In this document: positions 3,670-63,967 of the stretch, in pieces | Position numbering within the stretch: the stretch's first letter is position 1 | How the letters are laid out: each line of letters begins with the position of its first letter | Source of the DNA: a virus | DNA: 64,000 bases | Direction: 5' to 3' (one strand) | Virus record (IMG/VR): IMGVR_UViG_3300045988_154566 | Coordinates: 70,167-134,166 of that record | Notes under the pieces: model-generated | The model's database searches: none | Seen by the model: the letters and a program-made list of their open reading frames with translations, nothing else | Told to the model about the DNA's origin: nothing | Program-made: the position numbers and the translations under genes

Positions 3670-3705
3670 ATAAATATTATATCATATATTTTATATAAAA
3701 TCAAG
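3670..3705 (-). promoter_or_regulatory. consensus sigma70-type promoter (TTGATT-N17-TGnTATAAT) for the DnaE gene
   Basis: Minus strand: -35 TTGATT (3699-3704), 17-nt spacer, extended -10 TGATATAAT (3676-3681). Confidence 0.6.
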
Positions 3706-3715
3706 AAAACGAGAA

Positions 3716-3898
3716 CTAAATGTTCTCGTTCTTTATATTTTTTCTTATTTCATTAATACAGTTTTCACAAATTTCTGCTTTTCCCCATGCAAACCAATTT
3801 GAATTATCTGTATCTCTAAATAGTACTCTTTTTTTTATTTTATAATTTTCTAAATTATCAGGAATCACTTTACAACATATTGCACATATATTTTTCAT
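3716..3898 (-). CDS. small zinc-ribbon protein
   Basis: 60 aa with two CxxC pairs (CAICC...CENC). The C-terminal codons overlap a terminator hairpin. Confidence 0.35.
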   Translation of the reverse strand: MKNICAICCKVIPDNLENYKIKKRVLFRDTDNSNWFAWGKAEICENCINEIRKNIKNENI

Positions 3899-5082
3899 TA
3901 TTCATTCCTCCTAATTACTAGCTTTTCTGATGCTCTAGTTGCGGCTGTGTATAACCATCTTGCATGTTCTATCTTAACATTAGGAAAAGATTCCTCAATA
4001 ACTAAGACCTTATCCCATTCACTACCTTGTGCGCTATGACAAGTAATTGCATAAGCATAAGTGAAGTTTTTAGGAATTAAATCACCATATATATACTTCA
4101 TCTTTCCAAGTTGATATTGAACTCGCCAATCTAAAAAAGGTTCTTCTTTAGTGAAGAAAGTTCTATCCATATCTAATAAAGGAAAAGTATCGCCGCCATC
4201 TGGCTTAAAATCGCCAATTATAATTGGAACTTCTCGTTCATCTGTTTGAATACGATTAGGAACCCTAATAAAGCTAGTACATGGATTAATTAATGTTCCT
4301 GTTGTACCATTAACAAGAGCATCACCATTTTCATTTGTGTCATCCCAATAATTGCGTTTGCAAATAATCTTTTCTCCATTCTTTGGCAATCCTGAATAGC
4401 CTAATAAACCTCTTACTTGGTCATTTATAGAATGTCGAGTTGCATTTGTTGCAACTAAAATTTGGTCCGCCCATGTTAGCATTCCAGTATTTAACTCATT
4501 CTGTTTAACTACACAAACCTCATTACCTTTCATAAAAGAAATTGGTTCAAAATTACGAATTTTCATCGTAAGTCTAATAATTTCACTTTCCGCAGCTTGC
4601 CTCATGACCTCGTCTAAGAATACATCAGGATGCTTAAGAAGGTCATTTTCCTCAGTCTTATCGATTTGAGGTAGCTGAAATGGGTCACCAAGAAAGATAA
4701 TGAAAATATGATGTGTCATAAGTAAATCTACCATTGACTTCGGAACCATAGATACTTCATCTACGACCACTACTGTATAATCTAGCTCTTTTCTTATACG
4801 CCTACCAAATCCGCCACTTGCCTTTGGATAATGCTCATATAATAAATGATGAAGAGTACAAGCACCAGGATTTCCCTTTTTTCTCAAGACTTCCGCGGCT
4901 TTACCTGTATATGTAGCATAAGCTACTTTTTCTGGAGCAACATTTAATGCGCTAATAATAAATTTAACCAAGGTTGATTTTCCAGTTCCAGCATAACCCG
5001 CAATAACCGCGTATTTATCTCCTTTTTCATGTTTATCTAAGACCACACGAAGTCCTTCTTCTTGCTTCCTCGTTAATATCAT
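3898..5082 (-). CDS. Dda/RecD-like SF1 DNA helicase
   Basis: Walker A GYAGTGKST, Walker B VVVDEVSMV, LGDPFQLP motif typical of the RecD/Dda (AAA_30) family. Confidence 0.7.
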   Translation of the reverse strand: MILTRKQEEGLRVVLDKHEKGDKYAVIAGYAGTGKSTLVKFIISALNVAPEKVAYATYTGKAAEVLRKKGNPGACTLHHLLYEHYPKASGGFGRRIRKELDYTVVVVDEVSMVPKSMVDLLMTHHIFIIFLGDPFQLPQIDKTEENDLLKHPDVFLDEVMRQAAESEIIRLTMKIRNFEPISFMKGNEVCVVKQNELNTGMLTWADQILVATNATRHSINDQVRGLLGYSGLPKNGEKIICKRNYWDDTNENGDALVNGTTGTLINPCTSFIRVPNRIQTDEREVPIIIGDFKPDGGDTFPLLDMDRTFFTKEEPFLDWRVQYQLGKMKYIYGDLIPKNFTYAYAITCHSAQGSEWDKVLVIEESFPNVKIEHARWLYTAATRASEKLVIRRNE

Positions 5083-5891
5083 TATTCTTTCACCTCATAA
5101 AAAGTCATATCACTATAATCAACCGCACCTGTGTCTTCAATACGGAAATCATCAATTTTTAATCTTAAATTATCTATAATATCATTATTAATAGCAAAGT
5201 CTTTAGGATTTTTTAGAAACTCTTCATATTCTTCTTTAGATAAATCAATTTCTCCTTCATAGTGTCCATATCTTAAAAATCCACTAATATAATCCGGAAT
5301 AATATTATCTATGAAAATTGTTTTATCTTCTTTCTTATGTCTTTCATTTGCTTTATCTATTGTCATTCTATTTAAAGAAGTAATTGCACTAACACGACCA
5401 TTTTTAATGATTTTACTCAAATTTACAGGAGTATAATTACAAACATTTGCTGCTAAATTAAGATGGTATATATCATTGCACCCCTCTATATTAGAATGGT
5501 CATGACCATGAATATTTAAACACCAAGATAAGCCTTTTATAGGTTCATGTGATAATAAAATCTTTTCAGCAATAAAAACAGGACCAGTATAAATTTCATT
5601 GAAATACTTTCGATATTTACCTAAACATGAATAATCGTGATTGCCGCAAATTAATATCTTATAATTTACATTTAGTTGTTCTAAATACTTTGGGTCTCCT
5701 ATATCTCCTAATAAAACCAAGGTATCATTTTTATGAACTAATTTATTGATTCTCTGAACCTGTTCTTCTGGAGTTATCCAATTCTTATCCATAAGTTTAC
5801 AATCACTATCATTGAAATGTGTATCAGATAAAATCCAAACAGAGCCAGTCATAGACCAATGCCTAAAAATATTATATAACATATCTATCAT
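5082..5891 (-). CDS. calcineurin-like metallophosphoesterase
   Basis: Motifs LSDTHF, GDIGD, GNHD, GHDH. Confidence 0.65.
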   Translation of the reverse strand: MIDMLYNIFRHWSMTGSVWILSDTHFNDSDCKLMDKNWITPEEQVQRINKLVHKNDTLVLLGDIGDPKYLEQLNVNYKILICGNHDYSCLGKYRKYFNEIYTGPVFIAEKILLSHEPIKGLSWCLNIHGHDHSNIEGCNDIYHLNLAANVCNYTPVNLSKIIKNGRVSAITSLNRMTIDKANERHKKEDKTIFIDNIIPDYISGFLRYGHYEGEIDLSKEEYEEFLKNPKDFAINNDIIDNLRLKIDDFRIEDTGAVDYSDMTFYEVKE

Positions 5892-5894
5892 ATC

Positions 5895-6332
5895 TTACTC
5901 TCCTTTTTCATCCAATTCATCATATAACTCATTTCTAATACGCATAAGAGTTTGACCTAATTTATTTTGTCCTACTCCTTTACATTTGCCCCAATAAGTA
6001 TCTCCCCAAGTATTGCCTTCTACTATTGATTCTAATCCAGTCTGTAAAAGCTTGATTTTAAGGTCTTCATTCTCTGTAAACTTCTGTTTACAAACATCGT
6101 ACATTACCTGGTCTTTAATTTCTTCCCAATCATCTCTTAATTCAACTTTTCTGCCTAATCTTTTAGCTGCACCAGGTCTTAAACCAATAAACTTACGCCT
6201 CTCTTCATCTGTTTTACACTTAGCAGCCTGAAAAGCAGCTTCTGTTGAATTATATAATATACCTTTATAAAGTATTGGAACTTCATAAAAATTACTTAAA
6301 AATCCAAATTTACCATCAAATATATCTATCAT
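5895..6332 (-). CDS. NADAR (YbiA/DUF1768) domain protein
   Basis: FGFLSNFY...EAAFQAAK...GDTYWG pattern characteristic of the NADAR family. Confidence 0.65.
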   Translation of the reverse strand: MIDIFDGKFGFLSNFYEVPILYKGILYNSTEAAFQAAKCKTDEERRKFIGLRPGAAKRLGRKVELRDDWEEIKDQVMYDVCKQKFTENEDLKIKLLQTGLESIVEGNTWGDTYWGKCKGVGQNKLGQTLMRIRNELYDELDEKGE

Positions 6333-6358
6333 TTTAATATTATTCCTTTCTTATCTAT

Positions 6359-6394
6359 ATAAATATTATATCATATTTTAAAATTAAAATCAAT
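6359..6394 (-). promoter_or_regulatory. consensus promoter copy upstream of the NADAR gene
   Basis: -10 at 6365-6370, -35 at 6388-6393, spacer 17. Confidence 0.6.
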
Positions 6395-6580
6395 ACAATA
6401 ATACTTTTTCTTTTCTACCTTTTTCTTCATACATTCCTTACATTTATTTCTTACTATTGGAAAAACAGAAGTACAAATATCCATTTCTGAATAATTGTAC
6501 CCCTCTAACCAAAATAATCTATTACAATAAAAACATCTCTTTGGAATAAAAGCAAATTTATCATAATGTGTTAAAGTCAT
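6371..6580 (-). CDS. small Cys-rich (zinc-ribbon) protein
   Basis: 69 aa with CFYC...CKEC. Confidence 0.3.
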   Translation of the reverse strand: MTLTHYDKFAFIPKRCFYCNRLFWLEGYNYSEMDICTSVFPIVRNKCKECMKKKVEKKKYYCIDFNFKI

Positions 6581-62666: not shown

Positions 62667-62695
62667 AACATTCCTTTCTAGTACTGAAGTACTAA

Positions 62696-62766
62696 TTCTG
62701 GTTGAGAGAGTCGAACTCTCGTTACTGGGTTACAAAGCCAGGGTTCTACCATTAAACTAAACCAGA
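62696..62766 (-). tRNA. tRNA-Thr (UGU)
   Basis: Anticodon loop TTTGTAA (C31xC39 mismatch). Confidence 0.6.
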
Positions 62767-63049
62767 TTATAAAATTAAGAGGTTTTCCACCAATGTAAGA
62801 CAAACCAATAAACTTACTTTTGGTAGGCTGTGTTTCGCTACTGGTTAGCGCTCTTCGCTCTCTCTATCAACCACATATACAATCTTCCTTTAATTTGATT
62901 CTCGCATCTAGGAGTGTGTTATCCATATGCCGATATCTTTCTCCCCTACGGCTCCCATAATTCTCTCGAACTATTTTTCTTACGCATGTAGCCAACGACT
63001 ATTATTCACACCTAATAGCCAGCGAGTTTTAATGTCTTTGCTTTGACAT

Positions 63050-63130
63050 AATTACCCATGCAGGACTCGAACCTGCATCTCCCCTTGTCGGAGTATTTTT
63101 CCAATTAATTTAAACTAACAGGCATTTCTA
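63050..63130 (-). ncRNA. tRNA-like element with reduced anticodon arm
   Basis: T arm GCAGG-TTCGAGT-CCTGC; wobble-rich acceptor; 4-bp anticodon stem CTCC/GGAG. Confidence 0.2.
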
Positions 63131-63394
63131 TATGATTGCCGCCATATAGTCAAGGCATTTTGGTATTTTTAATCCACATGCGGCAACATGCTTCATTCAA
63201 TCAACCAACGAGGAATACTTTGAATGCCACCATTGGGTTCACTACGACGAACCGGCAAGAATCGAACTTGCCACATTCTTCATTCATACCTCTACCGAAC
63301 ACTGAAATCTCTTCGGATATGAACATTGACAGTTTTAACAAGGTAACTGACAACTGACTGCTCGGTTTTGTTTAACCAGTTCCGCAACTGGAAG

Positions 63395-63465
63395 CTCCTC
63401 CCCTGGGAATCGAACCCAGATTCTCCGCTTAACAGGCGGGCATCCTACCCTTGAATGAGAGAGGA
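63395..63465 (-). tRNA. tRNA-Asn (GUU)
   Basis: Acceptor TCCTCTC/GGGAGGA; anticodon loop CTGTTAA. Confidence 0.6.
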
Positions 63466-63490
63466 AAAATATTTTTTTTCTTTATCTTAT

Positions 63491-63526
63491 ATAAATATTA
63501 TAACATAAATTTTTATAAAAATCAAA
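63491..63526 (-). promoter_or_regulatory. consensus promoter copy immediately upstream of tRNA-Asn
   Basis: -10 at 63497-63502 (TGTTATAAT), -35 at 63520-63525. Confidence 0.55.
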
Positions 63527-63967
63527 TTACTATTATACGACCATAAGTAATTTGGTAGTTTTAACTAGATTCCGCTAGTAGGAGATTTTGTTCTCTTGGG
63601 TAAACCGCAGCCTTAGTCGCTCTCCGTCAACCTCACCCTGTATACCTTCTTTTTTATAGAGGAGAAGCATGGGTAGTAACTTACCTCTTTTCTTTATATA
63701 AATATTATATCATATTTTTTTATATTTTTCAAGTTTGTACTTTATATAAAAAATATTTTATAATACTTAAATCACTTTGTCCAAAAATTTTTAAAAATGG
63801 CTGTTTGTTATCAGCAGGTTGCCGCCCTAATAAAAAAACTTTAAGAAAGCTATTATCATAAAACTTGTCATCTTTAACGCAGTAACTCACGACTTATAAC
63901 TCTTTGATAAGCAAGTCAACATATCTGATGCTGTATGTGCGCATTAAGAACTGATAAATTCTTAAAT

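What the first reader, a model, noticed from the sequence alone, without database searches (positions are those of the whole stretch)
3670..63735. About 25 copies of one consensus extended -10 promoter organising the whole region
On the minus strand, TTGAtT-N17-TGaTATAATATTTATATA recurs with fixed 17-nt spacing. It appears upstream of genes at about 3680, 6368, 14488, 14922, 17745, 17824, 19865, 24625, 26885, 30672, 33290, 33725, 35715, 37825, 41120, 42250, 45230, 46190, 51950, 59563, 61165, 61415, 62276, 63499 and 63705. It often follows an intrinsic terminator directly. The near-identical flanks (ATATTTATATA) go beyond what sigma70 needs. They suggest a phage-specific UP element or regulator site, or a timing class such as early or middle genes.
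Basis: seen in the sequence. Interest (0 to 1): 0.55.

Follow-up and report, generated by a model that had tools for sequence, protein, structure and literature searches.

The report
Phage array of strong host-type promoters
The repeats are real: 25 near-identical, near-perfect copies of the standard housekeeping promoter of Gram-positive bacteria drive the non-structural genes and tRNA genes of an uncultured ~147-kb gut phage, which is the ordinary way large phages hijack host RNA polymerase rather than a new kind of signal.

Summary
A 41-nt weight matrix finds 25 minus-strand sites scoring 21.6-50.3. The next best site scores 9.1 and random sequence reaches at most 9.8. All 25 have a 17-bp spacer, face the same way as the genes, and have their -10 hexamer outside ORFs and tRNAs (P=6e-23).

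The consensus is TTGATTTTTATAAAAAATATGATATAATATTTATATAA. Each "extra" conserved part matches a described core-promoter element of host RNA polymerase:
- T-tract and A-tract in the spacer
- TRTG extended -10
- 5-nt AT-rich discriminator
- pyrimidine-purine start 7 nt after the -10
- purine-rich leader with ribosome-binding site

There is no UP-element signal upstream of -35.

The same 40-nt consensus recurs about 4 times per 10 kb in hundreds of related 100-400-kb viral contigs. It sits at orthologous positions even where proteins are only 40-65% identical. A cultured distant relative, Enterococcus phage H1, has 45 analogous sites and almost none in its structural block.

Seven sites abut an intrinsic terminator. 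One 247-bp indel between relatives has its crossover inside two promoter copies, as with T4 PeSL cassettes.

Verdict: a new member of a known kind. A regulator site is not excluded, but nothing requires one.

The parts
3665..3704 (-). Promoter copy (score 48.6). Drives the DnaE-type DNA polymerase III alpha gene (ATG at 3642). A terminator stem at 3732-3706 abuts the -35.
6354..6393 (-). Promoter copy (39.3). Drives the NADAR-domain gene 6332..5895 and the genes downstream of it.
12213..12252 (-). Promoter copy (36.6, TAG instead of TGn). Drives the SLOG/YAcAr gene, YorH-like gene, DnaB helicase and RecJ-like operon. A terminator at 12286-12252 abuts the -35.
14475..14514 (-). Promoter copy (27.6). 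Drives the YorF-like gene 14439..13462. Its position is conserved in relatives.
14909..14948 (-). Promoter copy (42.8). Drives the 118-aa gene 14882..14526. Its position is conserved in relatives.
17732..17771 (-). Promoter copy (37.3), proximal member of a tandem pair 79 nt apart. Drives the 57-aa gene 17721..17548.
17811..17850 (-). Promoter copy (33.3), distal member of the tandem pair.
19853..19892 (-). Promoter copy (21.6, the weakest of the 25; its downstream flank is shifted). Drives gene 19768..18992.
24613..24652 (-). Promoter copy (41.9; perfect TTGACA-17-TATAAT). Drives the 75-aa gene and the topoisomerase II subunit genes.
26869..26908 (-). Promoter copy (43.1). A terminator at 26950-26916 lies 7 nt upstream of the -35.
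30657..30696 (-). Promoter copy (39.7). The -35 is TTTATT, formed by the T-tail of the terminator at 30717-30697. Drives an HNH endonuclease gene.
33275..33314 (-). Promoter copy (45.0). Drives the 833-aa major-vault-protein-like gene.
33704..33743 (-). Promoter copy (33.9). A terminator at 33771-33744 abuts the -35. Drives the 114-aa gene.
35700..35739 (-). Promoter copy (45.1). Drives the 89-aa gene and the SPFH/flotillin-like gene.
37813..37852 (-). Promoter copy (42.9). The -35 is TTTATT, formed by the T-tail of the terminator at 37870-37853.
41104..41143 (-). Promoter copy (40.9; -35 is TTTATT). Drives the YqeY-like gene.
42234..42273 (-). Promoter copy (36.9). The -35 is TTTATT, formed by the T-tail of the terminator at 42295-42273. 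Drives an AAA ATPase gene.
45220..45259 (-). Promoter copy (48.3). Drives the tRNA-Pro/His/Gln cluster, whose first tRNA starts 80 nt downstream.
46173..46212 (-). Promoter copy (43.3). Drives a radical-SAM gene.
59550..59589 (-). Promoter copy (45.7). Drives the 106-aa gene and the downstream tRNA cluster.
61159..61198 (-). Promoter copy (45.0), upstream of the tRNA-Glu genes. It is the downstream boundary of the 247-bp module that is absent from relative L003.
61406..61445 (-). Promoter copy (48.8). It is the upstream boundary of the 247-bp module. No ORF lies downstream, so the product may be a small RNA.
62263..62302 (-). Promoter copy (50.3, the best). It lies directly after tRNA-Ala and upstream of tRNA-Leu.
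63486..63525 (-). Promoter copy (49.0). tRNA-Asn starts 31 nt after the -10.
63693..63732 (-). Promoter copy (43.6).
51940..51979 (-). Weak relative (score 9.1): TTGCAT-17-TATAAT with TATG but without the conserved spacer and downstream flank. It lies upstream of the GT2 glycosyltransferase gene.

Best explanation
The 25 repeats are constitutive-type promoters read by the host's housekeeping RNA polymerase holoenzyme (sigmaA in Firmicutes). They belong to an uncultured ~147-kb phage of low-GC Gram-positive gut bacteria.

Each copy is close to optimal in every core-promoter element at once:
- -35 TTGAtt
- 17-bp spacer with a T-tract next to the -35 and an A-tract in the middle
- TRTG-type extended -10 (TATGa)
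- perfect TATAAT
- 5-nt AT-rich discriminator (ATWTA)
- T(-1)/purine(+1) start 7 nt after the -10
- A/G-rich unstructured leader running into a Shine-Dalgarno sequence about 15-25 nt further on

Inferred mechanism. On infection, host RNAP binds these sites without phage factors and fires strongly. About one promoter sits every 2.6 kb, often placed right after an intrinsic terminator. This chops the 78-kb non-structural arm into short, independently and strongly expressed units: small early ORFs, replication and nucleotide-metabolism genes, RNA-repair genes and tRNA clusters. Late functions (lysis, tail spike, structural arm) lack the motif and presumably use another signal.

The repeated 40-bp copies also act as substrates for homologous recombination that adds or removes promoter-bounded modules.

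What is shown: sequence, position, orientation, spacing, conservation, and one recombination event. What is inferred: actual RNAP binding, the start site, promoter strength and timing.
For: - Statistics and strand.
- All 25 -10 hexamers lie outside ORFs and tRNAs, although 87% of the window is genic (P=6e-23).
- The -10 to ATG distance is mostly 28-46 nt with an SD sequence, and several copies sit directly before tRNA genes.
- The position-wise information profile ends sharply at -35 and at about +9.
- Element-by-element match to described promoter anatomy: four-region spacer, extended -10, AT- or AG-rich discriminator in Terrabacteria, YRY/YRR 'start' element centred 7 nt after the -10, AG-rich ITR in Firmicutes (PMC12641261). 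A Clostridia host consensus is RTGNTATAATAAWADHA with +1 A (PMC13340025).
- Unbiased test of the flank: IMG/VR sites selected only on -35, spacer and TGnTATAAT still show ATWTATRKAA downstream, with 85-94% per position (119 distinct sites).
- There are 756 PWM hits in 1.88 Mb of related viral loci at the same density. In 149 of 172 multi-hit loci all hits are on one strand.
- Promoter positions are conserved upstream of orthologous genes whose proteins are only 40-65% identical.
- The same motif precedes the small-ORF region upstream of the window, so it must work before any phage protein exists.
- Cultured Enterococcus phage H1 has 45 analogous sites, co-oriented with its non-structural genes. 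Only one lies in its 53-kb structural block, at that block's upstream end.
- Terminator-promoter abutment in 7 of 25 sites.
- The 247-bp indel with its crossover inside two copies.
Against: - No transcript 5' ends, RNAP binding data or known host are available.
- About 40 bits of conservation is much more than RNAP recognition alone usually leaves in host promoters. Selection for strength may therefore not be the whole story.
- The cultured relative H1 keeps the architecture but has its own favoured downstream flank (TAATTATAAAGTTAAA). This suggests either within-genome homogenisation or a lineage-specific constraint beyond generic RNAP preference.
- The 13.4-kb motif-free stretch is not significant on spacing alone (P about 0.13).
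- The structural arm of this phage was not seen.
Confidence: 0.85

Rival explanations
1. Same promoters, but the conserved spacer A-tract and/or the discriminator and start region (ATWTA-TATAAR) are in addition the binding site of a clade-wide phage-encoded factor. This could be a repressor for early shut-off, an appropriator, or an antiterminator loaded during a sigma-dependent pause at the -10-like TATAAR that begins at -1.
For: - The non-hexamer positions carry about 23 bits.
- They stay conserved across a clade whose proteins have diverged to 40-65% identity.
- H1 has a different but equally stereotyped flank, as expected if the flank co-evolves with a phage protein.
- TATAAG at -1..+5 matches TATAAT in 5 of 6 positions, and many units are followed by terminators that downstream genes must cope with.
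Against: - Every conserved block has an RNAP-based explanation.
- There is no dyad symmetry beyond what AT alternation gives. Plus-strand PWM echoes score at most 18.7.
- No candidate regulator was identified. The only weak HTH-like hit is the 118-aa ORF 14882..14526, and it is below Pfam thresholds.
Confidence: 0.1
2. The copies are kept alike mainly by concerted evolution. They would be mobile or recombining terminator-promoter cassettes, like T4 PeSLs, whose similarity reflects gene conversion and module shuffling rather than position-by-position selection.
For: - A 247-bp module bounded by copies 61422 and 61175 is precisely missing in relative L003, with a hybrid promoter left behind.
- The five copies in the tRNA region are almost identical over all 41 nt.
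- 7 of 25 are composite terminator-promoter units.
- H1 has its own homogenised flank.
Against: - Similarity stops abruptly at the motif edges, so these are not recent duplications.
- The same consensus is found in hundreds of contigs from different samples and at orthologous positions in distant relatives. Within-genome conversion alone cannot explain that.
- Only 1 of about 8 indels against close relatives has promoter-copy boundaries.
Confidence: 0.04
3. The sites are recognised not by host sigmaA but by a phage-encoded sigma factor or phage RNA polymerase, for example a YonO-like enzyme as in SPbeta, whose replication genes are this phage's closest named homologues.
For: The replication module resembles SPbeta yorF/yorH/yorI/yorK/yorL. 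SPbeta encodes the YonO RNA polymerase, and YonO homologues occur in gut Clostridia phages.
Against: - The motif is a textbook sigma70/sigmaA consensus with TRTG and 17-bp spacing.
- It also precedes the first small ORFs of the arm.
- No YonO homologue was found in the window or in 1.9 Mb of related fragments.
- H1, which has the same promoter type, gave no YonO hit at E<1e-5.
Confidence: 0.01

Closest known systems
Extended -10 (TGn / TRTG '-16 region') sigmaA promoters of Firmicutes, with the spacer, discriminator and 'start' elements described by Kuo et al. 2025 (PMC12641261). Also the Clostridia consensus RTGNTATAATAAWADHA (PMC13340025).
   Same: -35 TTGAnn; 17-bp spacer; T-tract then A-tract in the spacer; TRTG before TATAAT; AT-rich 5-nt discriminator; Y-1R+1 start 7 nt after the -10; purine-rich initial transcribed region.
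   Different: - Here all elements are near-consensus at once and nearly identical in 25 copies (about 40 bits). Host promoters mix strong and weak elements.
- A strong -35 is kept despite the extended -10. In most Firmicutes promoters the -35 is weaker when the extended -10 is present.
Arrays of strong host-RNAP early promoters in large virulent phages: T4 early promoters, T5 early promoters, SPO1 and Staphylococcus phage K-type early promoters. This comparison rests on my own knowledge and was not checked here.
   Same: Many copies of one extended consensus that goes beyond the two hexamers. They are co-oriented with early genes, are used by unmodified host RNAP, and are thought to out-compete host promoters.
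   Different: - This is a different phage lineage, with an SPbeta-like DnaE/DnaB/RecJ replication module and no cultured close relative (best 39% aa identity).
- There is no UP-like A-rich upstream region of the kind reported for T4 early promoters.
- Here the same motif also serves replication genes and tRNA clusters.
PeSLs (promoter-early stem-loops), composite terminator/promoter motifs of T4-like phages that mediate modular shuffling (PMC2839356, PMC4122927).
   Same: A conserved early promoter is fused to a stem-loop terminator and repeated between small gene modules. One indel between close relatives has its crossover inside two copies.
   Different: Only 7 of 25 copies carry the stem-loop, and the stems have no common sequence. 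Only one of about 8 indels is promoter-bounded. The host group is Gram-positive and the phage lineage is unrelated.
Promoter set of Enterococcus phage H1 (OP534061.1) and its relatives EF1, EF5 and VRE9. These are the nearest cultured phages by DnaE and DnaB (39% aa identity).
   Same: 45 TTGnnn-N14-TGnTAnAAT sites with a T-rich proximal spacer, an AT-rich discriminator and TATAAR. They are co-oriented with non-structural genes and tRNAs and nearly absent from the structural block.
   Different: The favoured downstream flank is TAATTATAAAGTTAAA instead of ATTTATATAAGATAAAG. The -35 is more often TTGACW. The record does not annotate these sites as promoters.

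Membership tests
sigma70/sigmaA housekeeping promoter with extended -10 | -35 hexamer close to TTGACA | tested here: met
   TTGA in 21 of 25 sites. The other 4 have TTTA, and in 3 of those the hexamer is formed by a terminator T-tail.
sigma70/sigmaA housekeeping promoter with extended -10 | -10 hexamer TATAAT at 17 +/- 1 bp from the -35 | tested here: met
   TATAAT is perfect in 25 of 25 sites and the spacer is exactly 17 in all. There are 20 exact TTGA-N16-TGnTATAAT matches against 0.04 expected.
sigma70/sigmaA housekeeping promoter with extended -10 | TGn (TRTG in Gram-positives) immediately upstream of the -10 | tested here: met
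   G at -14 in 23 of 25 and T at -15 in 25 of 25. T-A/T-T-G occupies -17..-14.
sigma70/sigmaA housekeeping promoter with extended -10 | Located upstream of genes and co-oriented with them | tested here: met
   All sites are on the coding strand. All -10 hexamers lie outside ORFs and tRNAs (P=6e-23). The next ATG with an SD sequence is 21-46 nt away for most, or a tRNA follows.
sigma70/sigmaA housekeeping promoter with extended -10 | Transcription starts 6-8 nt downstream of the -10, and the site is bound by host holoenzyme | not testable with these tools
   Only indirect evidence: a conserved T(-1)/purine(+1) at 6 and 7 nt after the -10, both in the window and in 119 independent sites.
UP element (alpha-CTD binding, A/T-rich, -40 to -60) | Conserved A/T tracts upstream of the -35 | tested here: not met
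   Information content is about 0.15 bit per position from -43 to -24 relative to the -10, which is the small-sample noise level. GC-rich terminator stems occupy this region in 7 copies.
PeSL-type composite terminator-promoter cassette | Stem-loop terminator fused to the conserved early promoter | tested here: inconclusive
   7 of 25 copies have a strong stem-loop 0-7 nt from the -35, against 5% expected. 18 do not.
PeSL-type composite terminator-promoter cassette | Copies mark the boundaries of indels or replacements between close relatives | tested here: inconclusive
   One clear case: a 247-bp module between copies 61422 and 61175, with a hybrid promoter in L003. About 7 other indels are not promoter-bounded.
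Operator for a phage transcription factor | Dyad or direct-repeat symmetry, plus a cognate DNA-binding protein | tested here: not met
   There is no symmetry beyond AT alternation; reverse-strand PWM echoes score at most 18.7. No convincing DNA-binding protein was identified. Binding itself cannot be tested here.

The most novel reading that the evidence does not exclude
The clade-wide conservation of the non-hexamer parts reflects a second function layered on the promoter. These parts are the spacer A-tract and especially the -10-like TATAAR at -1..+5. The second function could be sigmaA-dependent promoter-proximal pausing that loads a phage antiterminator or regulator. Or it could be a phage factor that recognises the 40-mer to switch this whole class off or on together. 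This would operate across a very large, uncultured family of 100-400-kb gut and rumen phages. The promoter copies would also be the recombination joints that shuffle that family's accessory modules.
Probability: 0.1. Interest if true: 0.55.

Novelty: new member of a known kind. Interest (0 to 1): 0.3.

Why it matters
- It gives a ready-made, high-confidence transcription map for about half the genome of an uncultured large phage lineage. The map comprises 25 units in the window and at least 33 on the arm.
- It provides a 41-nt model that recognises hundreds of related contigs. That is useful for annotating these phages, for assigning them to Gram-positive hosts, and for spotting phage contigs mis-binned into MAGs.
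- The consensus is also a candidate very strong, factor-independent promoter for low-GC Firmicutes.
- It does not reveal a new regulatory principle.

Tried and rejected
The spacing had been mis-written.
- A first viral scan used a spacer one base too short and found only 4 loci. It was repeated with the correct spacing.
- Megablast of 20 kb against cultured phages found nothing.
- UP-element hypothesis: rejected.
- Phage RNAP (YonO) hypothesis:
  - H1_43 is not YonO.
  - There is no YonO hit in the fetched relatives.
  - YonO homologues occur in other gut Clostridia phages, but not in H1.
  - The structural arm of this phage could not be fetched, because look-ups are restricted to window proteins.
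- Host identification from the genome-contig scan did not succeed.
  - The exact 21-mer occurs in many Bacilli and Clostridia MAGs.
  - The hits that carry the full motif look like binned phage contigs of 143-158 kb.
  - The true chromosomal hits mostly lack the -35 and spacer pattern (38% have TTG, against 82-94% in viral contigs).
  - So no host was pinned down.
- A literature search for the sequence itself found only unrelated uses plus one Clostridia promoter study.
- Looked for a second promoter class in motif-free gaps. Only two 2-copy elements were found, too few to interpret.

Full report
**What the window is**

The window is AT-rich (about 30-35% GC) and essentially all its genes lie on the minus strand. 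It encodes:
- a DnaE-type DNA polymerase III alpha, a DnaB helicase, a RecJ-like exonuclease and YorF/YorH-like proteins
- both topoisomerase II subunits
- an RNA ligase and a Ro60-like RNA-binding protein
- homing endonucleases
- an endolysin and a tail-spike-like protein
- 26 tRNA genes

No cultured phage matches at the DNA level. The best protein matches are 39% identical, to Enterococcus phages H1/VRE9/EF1/EF5 and to SPbeta-like Bacillus phages.

Contigs with identical proteins are about 145-150 kb long. They are ena:ERZ28568006 scaffold_102 at 147,314 bp and IMGVR_UViG_3300045988_145100 at 144,972 bp. The window is therefore about 44% of the genome of an uncultured large phage of low-GC Gram-positive bacteria from gut-type samples.

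**Check of the observation**

The described repeat is real.
- The 15-mer TATAATATTTATATA occurs 29 times with up to 2 mismatches, against 3.6 expected.
- With the spacing written correctly (17 nt between the hexamers, TGn included), TTGA-N16-TGnTATAAT occurs 20 times against 0.04 expected, always on the minus strand.

I built a 41-nt weight matrix from the aligned sites.
- It gives 25 minus-strand hits scoring 21.6-50.3.
- The next best site in the window scores 9.1.
- Thirty Markov-simulated windows never exceed 9.8.
- Plus-strand hits (at most 18.7) are reverse-strand echoes of the same AT-alternating sites.

The site at about 51950 is only a generic sigmaA-like site without the family's spacer and flank, and the site at 12229 was missed.

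**Anatomy**

The information profile rises abruptly at the -35 and falls back to background about 10 nt after the -10. The consensus is TTGATTTTTATAAAAAATATGATATAATATTTATATAA.

| Segment | Information |
|---|---|
| -35 hexamer | 7.5 bits |
| -10 hexamer | 9.0 bits |
| 17-nt spacer | 14.4 bits (5.6 of them in T-A/T-T-G just before the -10) |
| 10 nt after the -10 | 8.9 bits |
| 20 nt upstream of the -35 | about 0.15 bit per position, the sampling noise for 25 sequences |

So there is no UP-element signal.

All 25 -10 hexamers lie outside ORFs and tRNAs, although 87% of the window is genic (P=6e-23). For most copies an ATG with a Shine-Dalgarno sequence follows 28-46 nt after the -10. Five copies are followed by tRNA genes or by non-coding sequence.

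Seven copies have a strong stem-loop 0-7 nt upstream of the -35 (below the 5th percentile of window background; terminator scans). In three of them the terminator's T-tail itself supplies a TTTATT '-35'.

**Is the flank conservation real and general?**

I scanned IMG/VR for the exact 21-mer TATGATATAATATTTATATAA.
- More than 117 stretches came back, mostly from 100-200-kb contigs.
- In their unselected upstream flanks TTGATTTTTTATAAAAAA appears at the same distance: T .94, T .93, G .82, A .80 at the -35.

I then ran the reverse test, selecting only on -35, spacer and TGnTATAAT.
- This gave 119 distinct sites.
- Their unselected downstream 10 nt read A(.94) T(.90) W T(.87) A(.87) T(.85) R(.96) K(.85) A(.93) A(.92).

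So the whole 40-mer is a unit.

Across 1.88 Mb of fetched viral fragments the matrix finds 756 hits (586 distinct). That is 4.0 per 10 kb, the same density as in the window. In 149 of 172 loci with several hits they are all on one strand.

Many of these fragments carry homologues of the window's proteins at 40-75% identity: DnaE, DnaB, RecJ-like, the vault-like protein and the Ro-like protein. In syntenic fragments the promoters sit upstream of the same orthologous genes, for example the YorF-like gene, the 118-aa gene, the helicase operon, and the tandem pair before the 57/105-aa genes.

The exact 21-mer also occurs in bacterial genomes and MAGs, chiefly gut Bacilli and Clostridia.
- Only 38% of those hits have TTG at the -35 position.
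- The hits with the full motif look like phage contigs binned into MAGs, with contig sizes of 143-158 kb.

**How it most likely works**

Every conserved block corresponds to a described element of promoters read by the housekeeping holoenzyme. A 49-species study (PMC12641261) reports:
- a 17-bp spacer organised as a T-rich tract next to the -35, a low-signal region, a second A/T tract, and the G-containing extended -10
- an AT- or AG-rich discriminator of dominant length 5 in Terrabacteria
- a pyrimidine-purine-pyrimidine (or Y-R-R) 'start' element that fixes the start site and raises output when centred 7-8 nt after the -10
- a purine-rich initial transcribed region in Firmicutes

A Clostridia host consensus is RTGNTATAATAAWADHA with +1 A (PMC13340025).

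The phage consensus reads TTGATT | TTTTT | AT | AAAAAA | TATG A | TATAAT | ATWTA | T-A/G-T/G | AA-purine-rich-SD. That is this anatomy with every element at or near its optimum.

I therefore infer that host sigmaA RNAP recognises these sites unaided and initiates at the purine 7 nt after the -10. The resulting 5' leaders are about 20-40 nt long, A/G-rich and unstructured.

The same motif precedes the small ORFs upstream of the window: seven more copies in 8.7 kb. So it must function before any phage protein is made.

Placing a promoter straight after a terminator isolates short units and re-starts transcription at full strength. With one copy per about 2.6 kb and genome replication, the array would also be a strong sink for host RNAP. 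That last point is inference.

**Timing class**

Genes served by the motif are small early-type ORFs, replication and nucleotide metabolism, RNA repair and tRNA biology, and tRNAs.

The longest motif-free stretch (46.2-59.6 kb) holds the endolysin (Glucosaminidase+CW_7), a 1128-aa tail-spike-like protein with a Peptidase_G2 chaperone domain, a glycosyltransferase and a tRNA block. On spacing alone that gap is not significant (P about 0.13).

Beyond the window's left end only one weaker copy follows. The arm then ends at a RuvC-like gene, where the coding strand switches.

In the complete genome of the cultured relative Enterococcus phage H1 there are 45 strict TTGnnn-N14-TGnTAnAAT sites.
- They are co-oriented with the non-structural genes and tRNAs.
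- The 34.6-88-kb structural block has a single one, at its upstream end.

This supports, by analogy only, that the motif marks the non-late class.

**What else may shape it**

About 40 bits is more than RNAP recognition alone leaves in host promoters. H1 also has its own stereotyped flank, TAATTATAAAGTTAAA, which recurs many times. Two non-exclusive additions are possible.

(a) Recombination among copies.
- Compared with the window, relative L003 lacks exactly the 247 bp between copies 61422 and 61175.
- It carries a hybrid promoter with the upstream flank of one copy and the downstream flank of the other.
- The 150-kb relative keeps both copies, 246 nt apart.
- This matches the behaviour described for the composite terminator/promoter PeSL motifs of T4-like phages (PMC4122927).
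- Only one of about eight indels is of this type, however.

(b) A phage factor, or a sigma-dependent pause at the -10-like TATAAR at -1..+5. Nothing in the data requires either, and no symmetry or candidate protein was found.

A phage RNAP or sigma factor is very unlikely. The consensus is textbook sigmaA, and no YonO-like gene was detected in the window or in related fragments.

**Comparison and novelty**

Functionally this is the Gram-positive counterpart of the well-known arrays of strong host-type early promoters in large phages, with a PeSL-like terminator-promoter flavour. The comparison with T4, T5, SPO1 and phage K arrays is from my own knowledge.

It passes all sequence-level criteria for an extended -10 sigmaA promoter. 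It fails the UP-element criterion. It is inconclusive as a PeSL-type cassette.

What is new is only the lineage and its size. This is a very large uncultured clade of 100-400-kb phages sharing one 40-nt promoter consensus. It is a new member of a known kind, of moderate-to-low interest.

Noticed in passing
window 42766-42840 (-): Rfam c-di-GMP-I riboswitch aptamer (62.3 bits, above the gathering score). It lies just upstream of an unannotated 157-aa ORF (42774..42301) and just downstream of a terminator plus a weak TATAAT. This would be a phage gene under host second-messenger control.
   Followed up: partly
window 30732-33233 (-) and 33774-35366 (-): An 833-aa protein with major-vault-protein shoulder (Pfam E=1.8e-21) and vault repeat domains. 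Next to it is a 530-aa SPFH/flotillin-like protein. Homologues at 50-75% identity occur in many related viral contigs. Vault-like proteins in phages are unusual.
   Followed up: partly
window 42884-44359 (-), 44418-45150 (-), 28478-29737 (-): A Ro60/TROVE-like RNA-binding protein (phrog_850) sits directly upstream of tRNA-Cys. A cluster of three more tRNA genes (Gln, His, Pro) lies further upstream of it, beyond a 114-aa ORF. An RNA ligase, a YqeY-like protein and a cREC_REC protein lie elsewhere in the window. Together these suggest a phage RNA-repair or quality-control module. No Y-RNA was found by Rfam.
   Followed up: partly
window 50338-50546 (-), with 50460-51122 (-): Sub-threshold match to the group I intron family (29.2 bits, E=6e-4). 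It overlaps the 3' end of a GIY-YIG/NUMOD homing-endonuclease ORF and extends into the GC-rich non-coding stretch downstream of it. This may be an intron-plus-homing-endonuclease insertion splitting a gene. The neighbouring gap 51123-51361 also looks structured.
   Followed up: partly
window 13357-13383 (-) and 55798-55824 (-): A second repeated intergenic element, TTTTGGAWTTTTTTAAATCRAWTTTWA, with 2 copies against 0 expected. It has a TTGGAW-17/18-(T/C)AGAAT look. It occurs upstream of the AAA_24 gene and of the endolysin gene, both of which lack the main motif. It might be a different promoter class.
   Followed up: partly
window 28433-28451 (-) and 53971-53989 (-): The sequence TTTATTKGGTCAAAAA occurs directly after two strong terminators, with 2 copies against 0.05 expected. 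Its function is unknown.
   Followed up: no
window 61176-61422 (-): A 247-bp promoter-bounded module with no ORF. It is present in the window and in a 150-kb relative but precisely absent in the 145-kb relative L003. It may encode a small RNA.
   Followed up: partly
window 56162-63465 (-), 61829-61898 (-): 25-26 tRNA genes lie in two clusters, interspersed with promoter copies. They include an ARAGORN call of tRNA-Asn with anticodon ATT, which Rfam did not confirm, and an extra weak tRNA at 63052-63124.
   Followed up: no
L125/L175 (CALCFD010000051.1, 147.8 kb), L130/L137 (JAFVUY010000119.1, 158 kb), L139/L209 (CALWOP010000177.1, 149 kb), L158 (JAZNZK010000010.1, 143 kb): Several MAGs are labelled Eubacterium, Bacilli, Oscillospiraceae or Ruminococcus. 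They contain 143-158-kb contigs carrying the full promoter motif and homologues of the window's proteins. These look like whole phage genomes binned into bacterial MAGs.
   Followed up: partly
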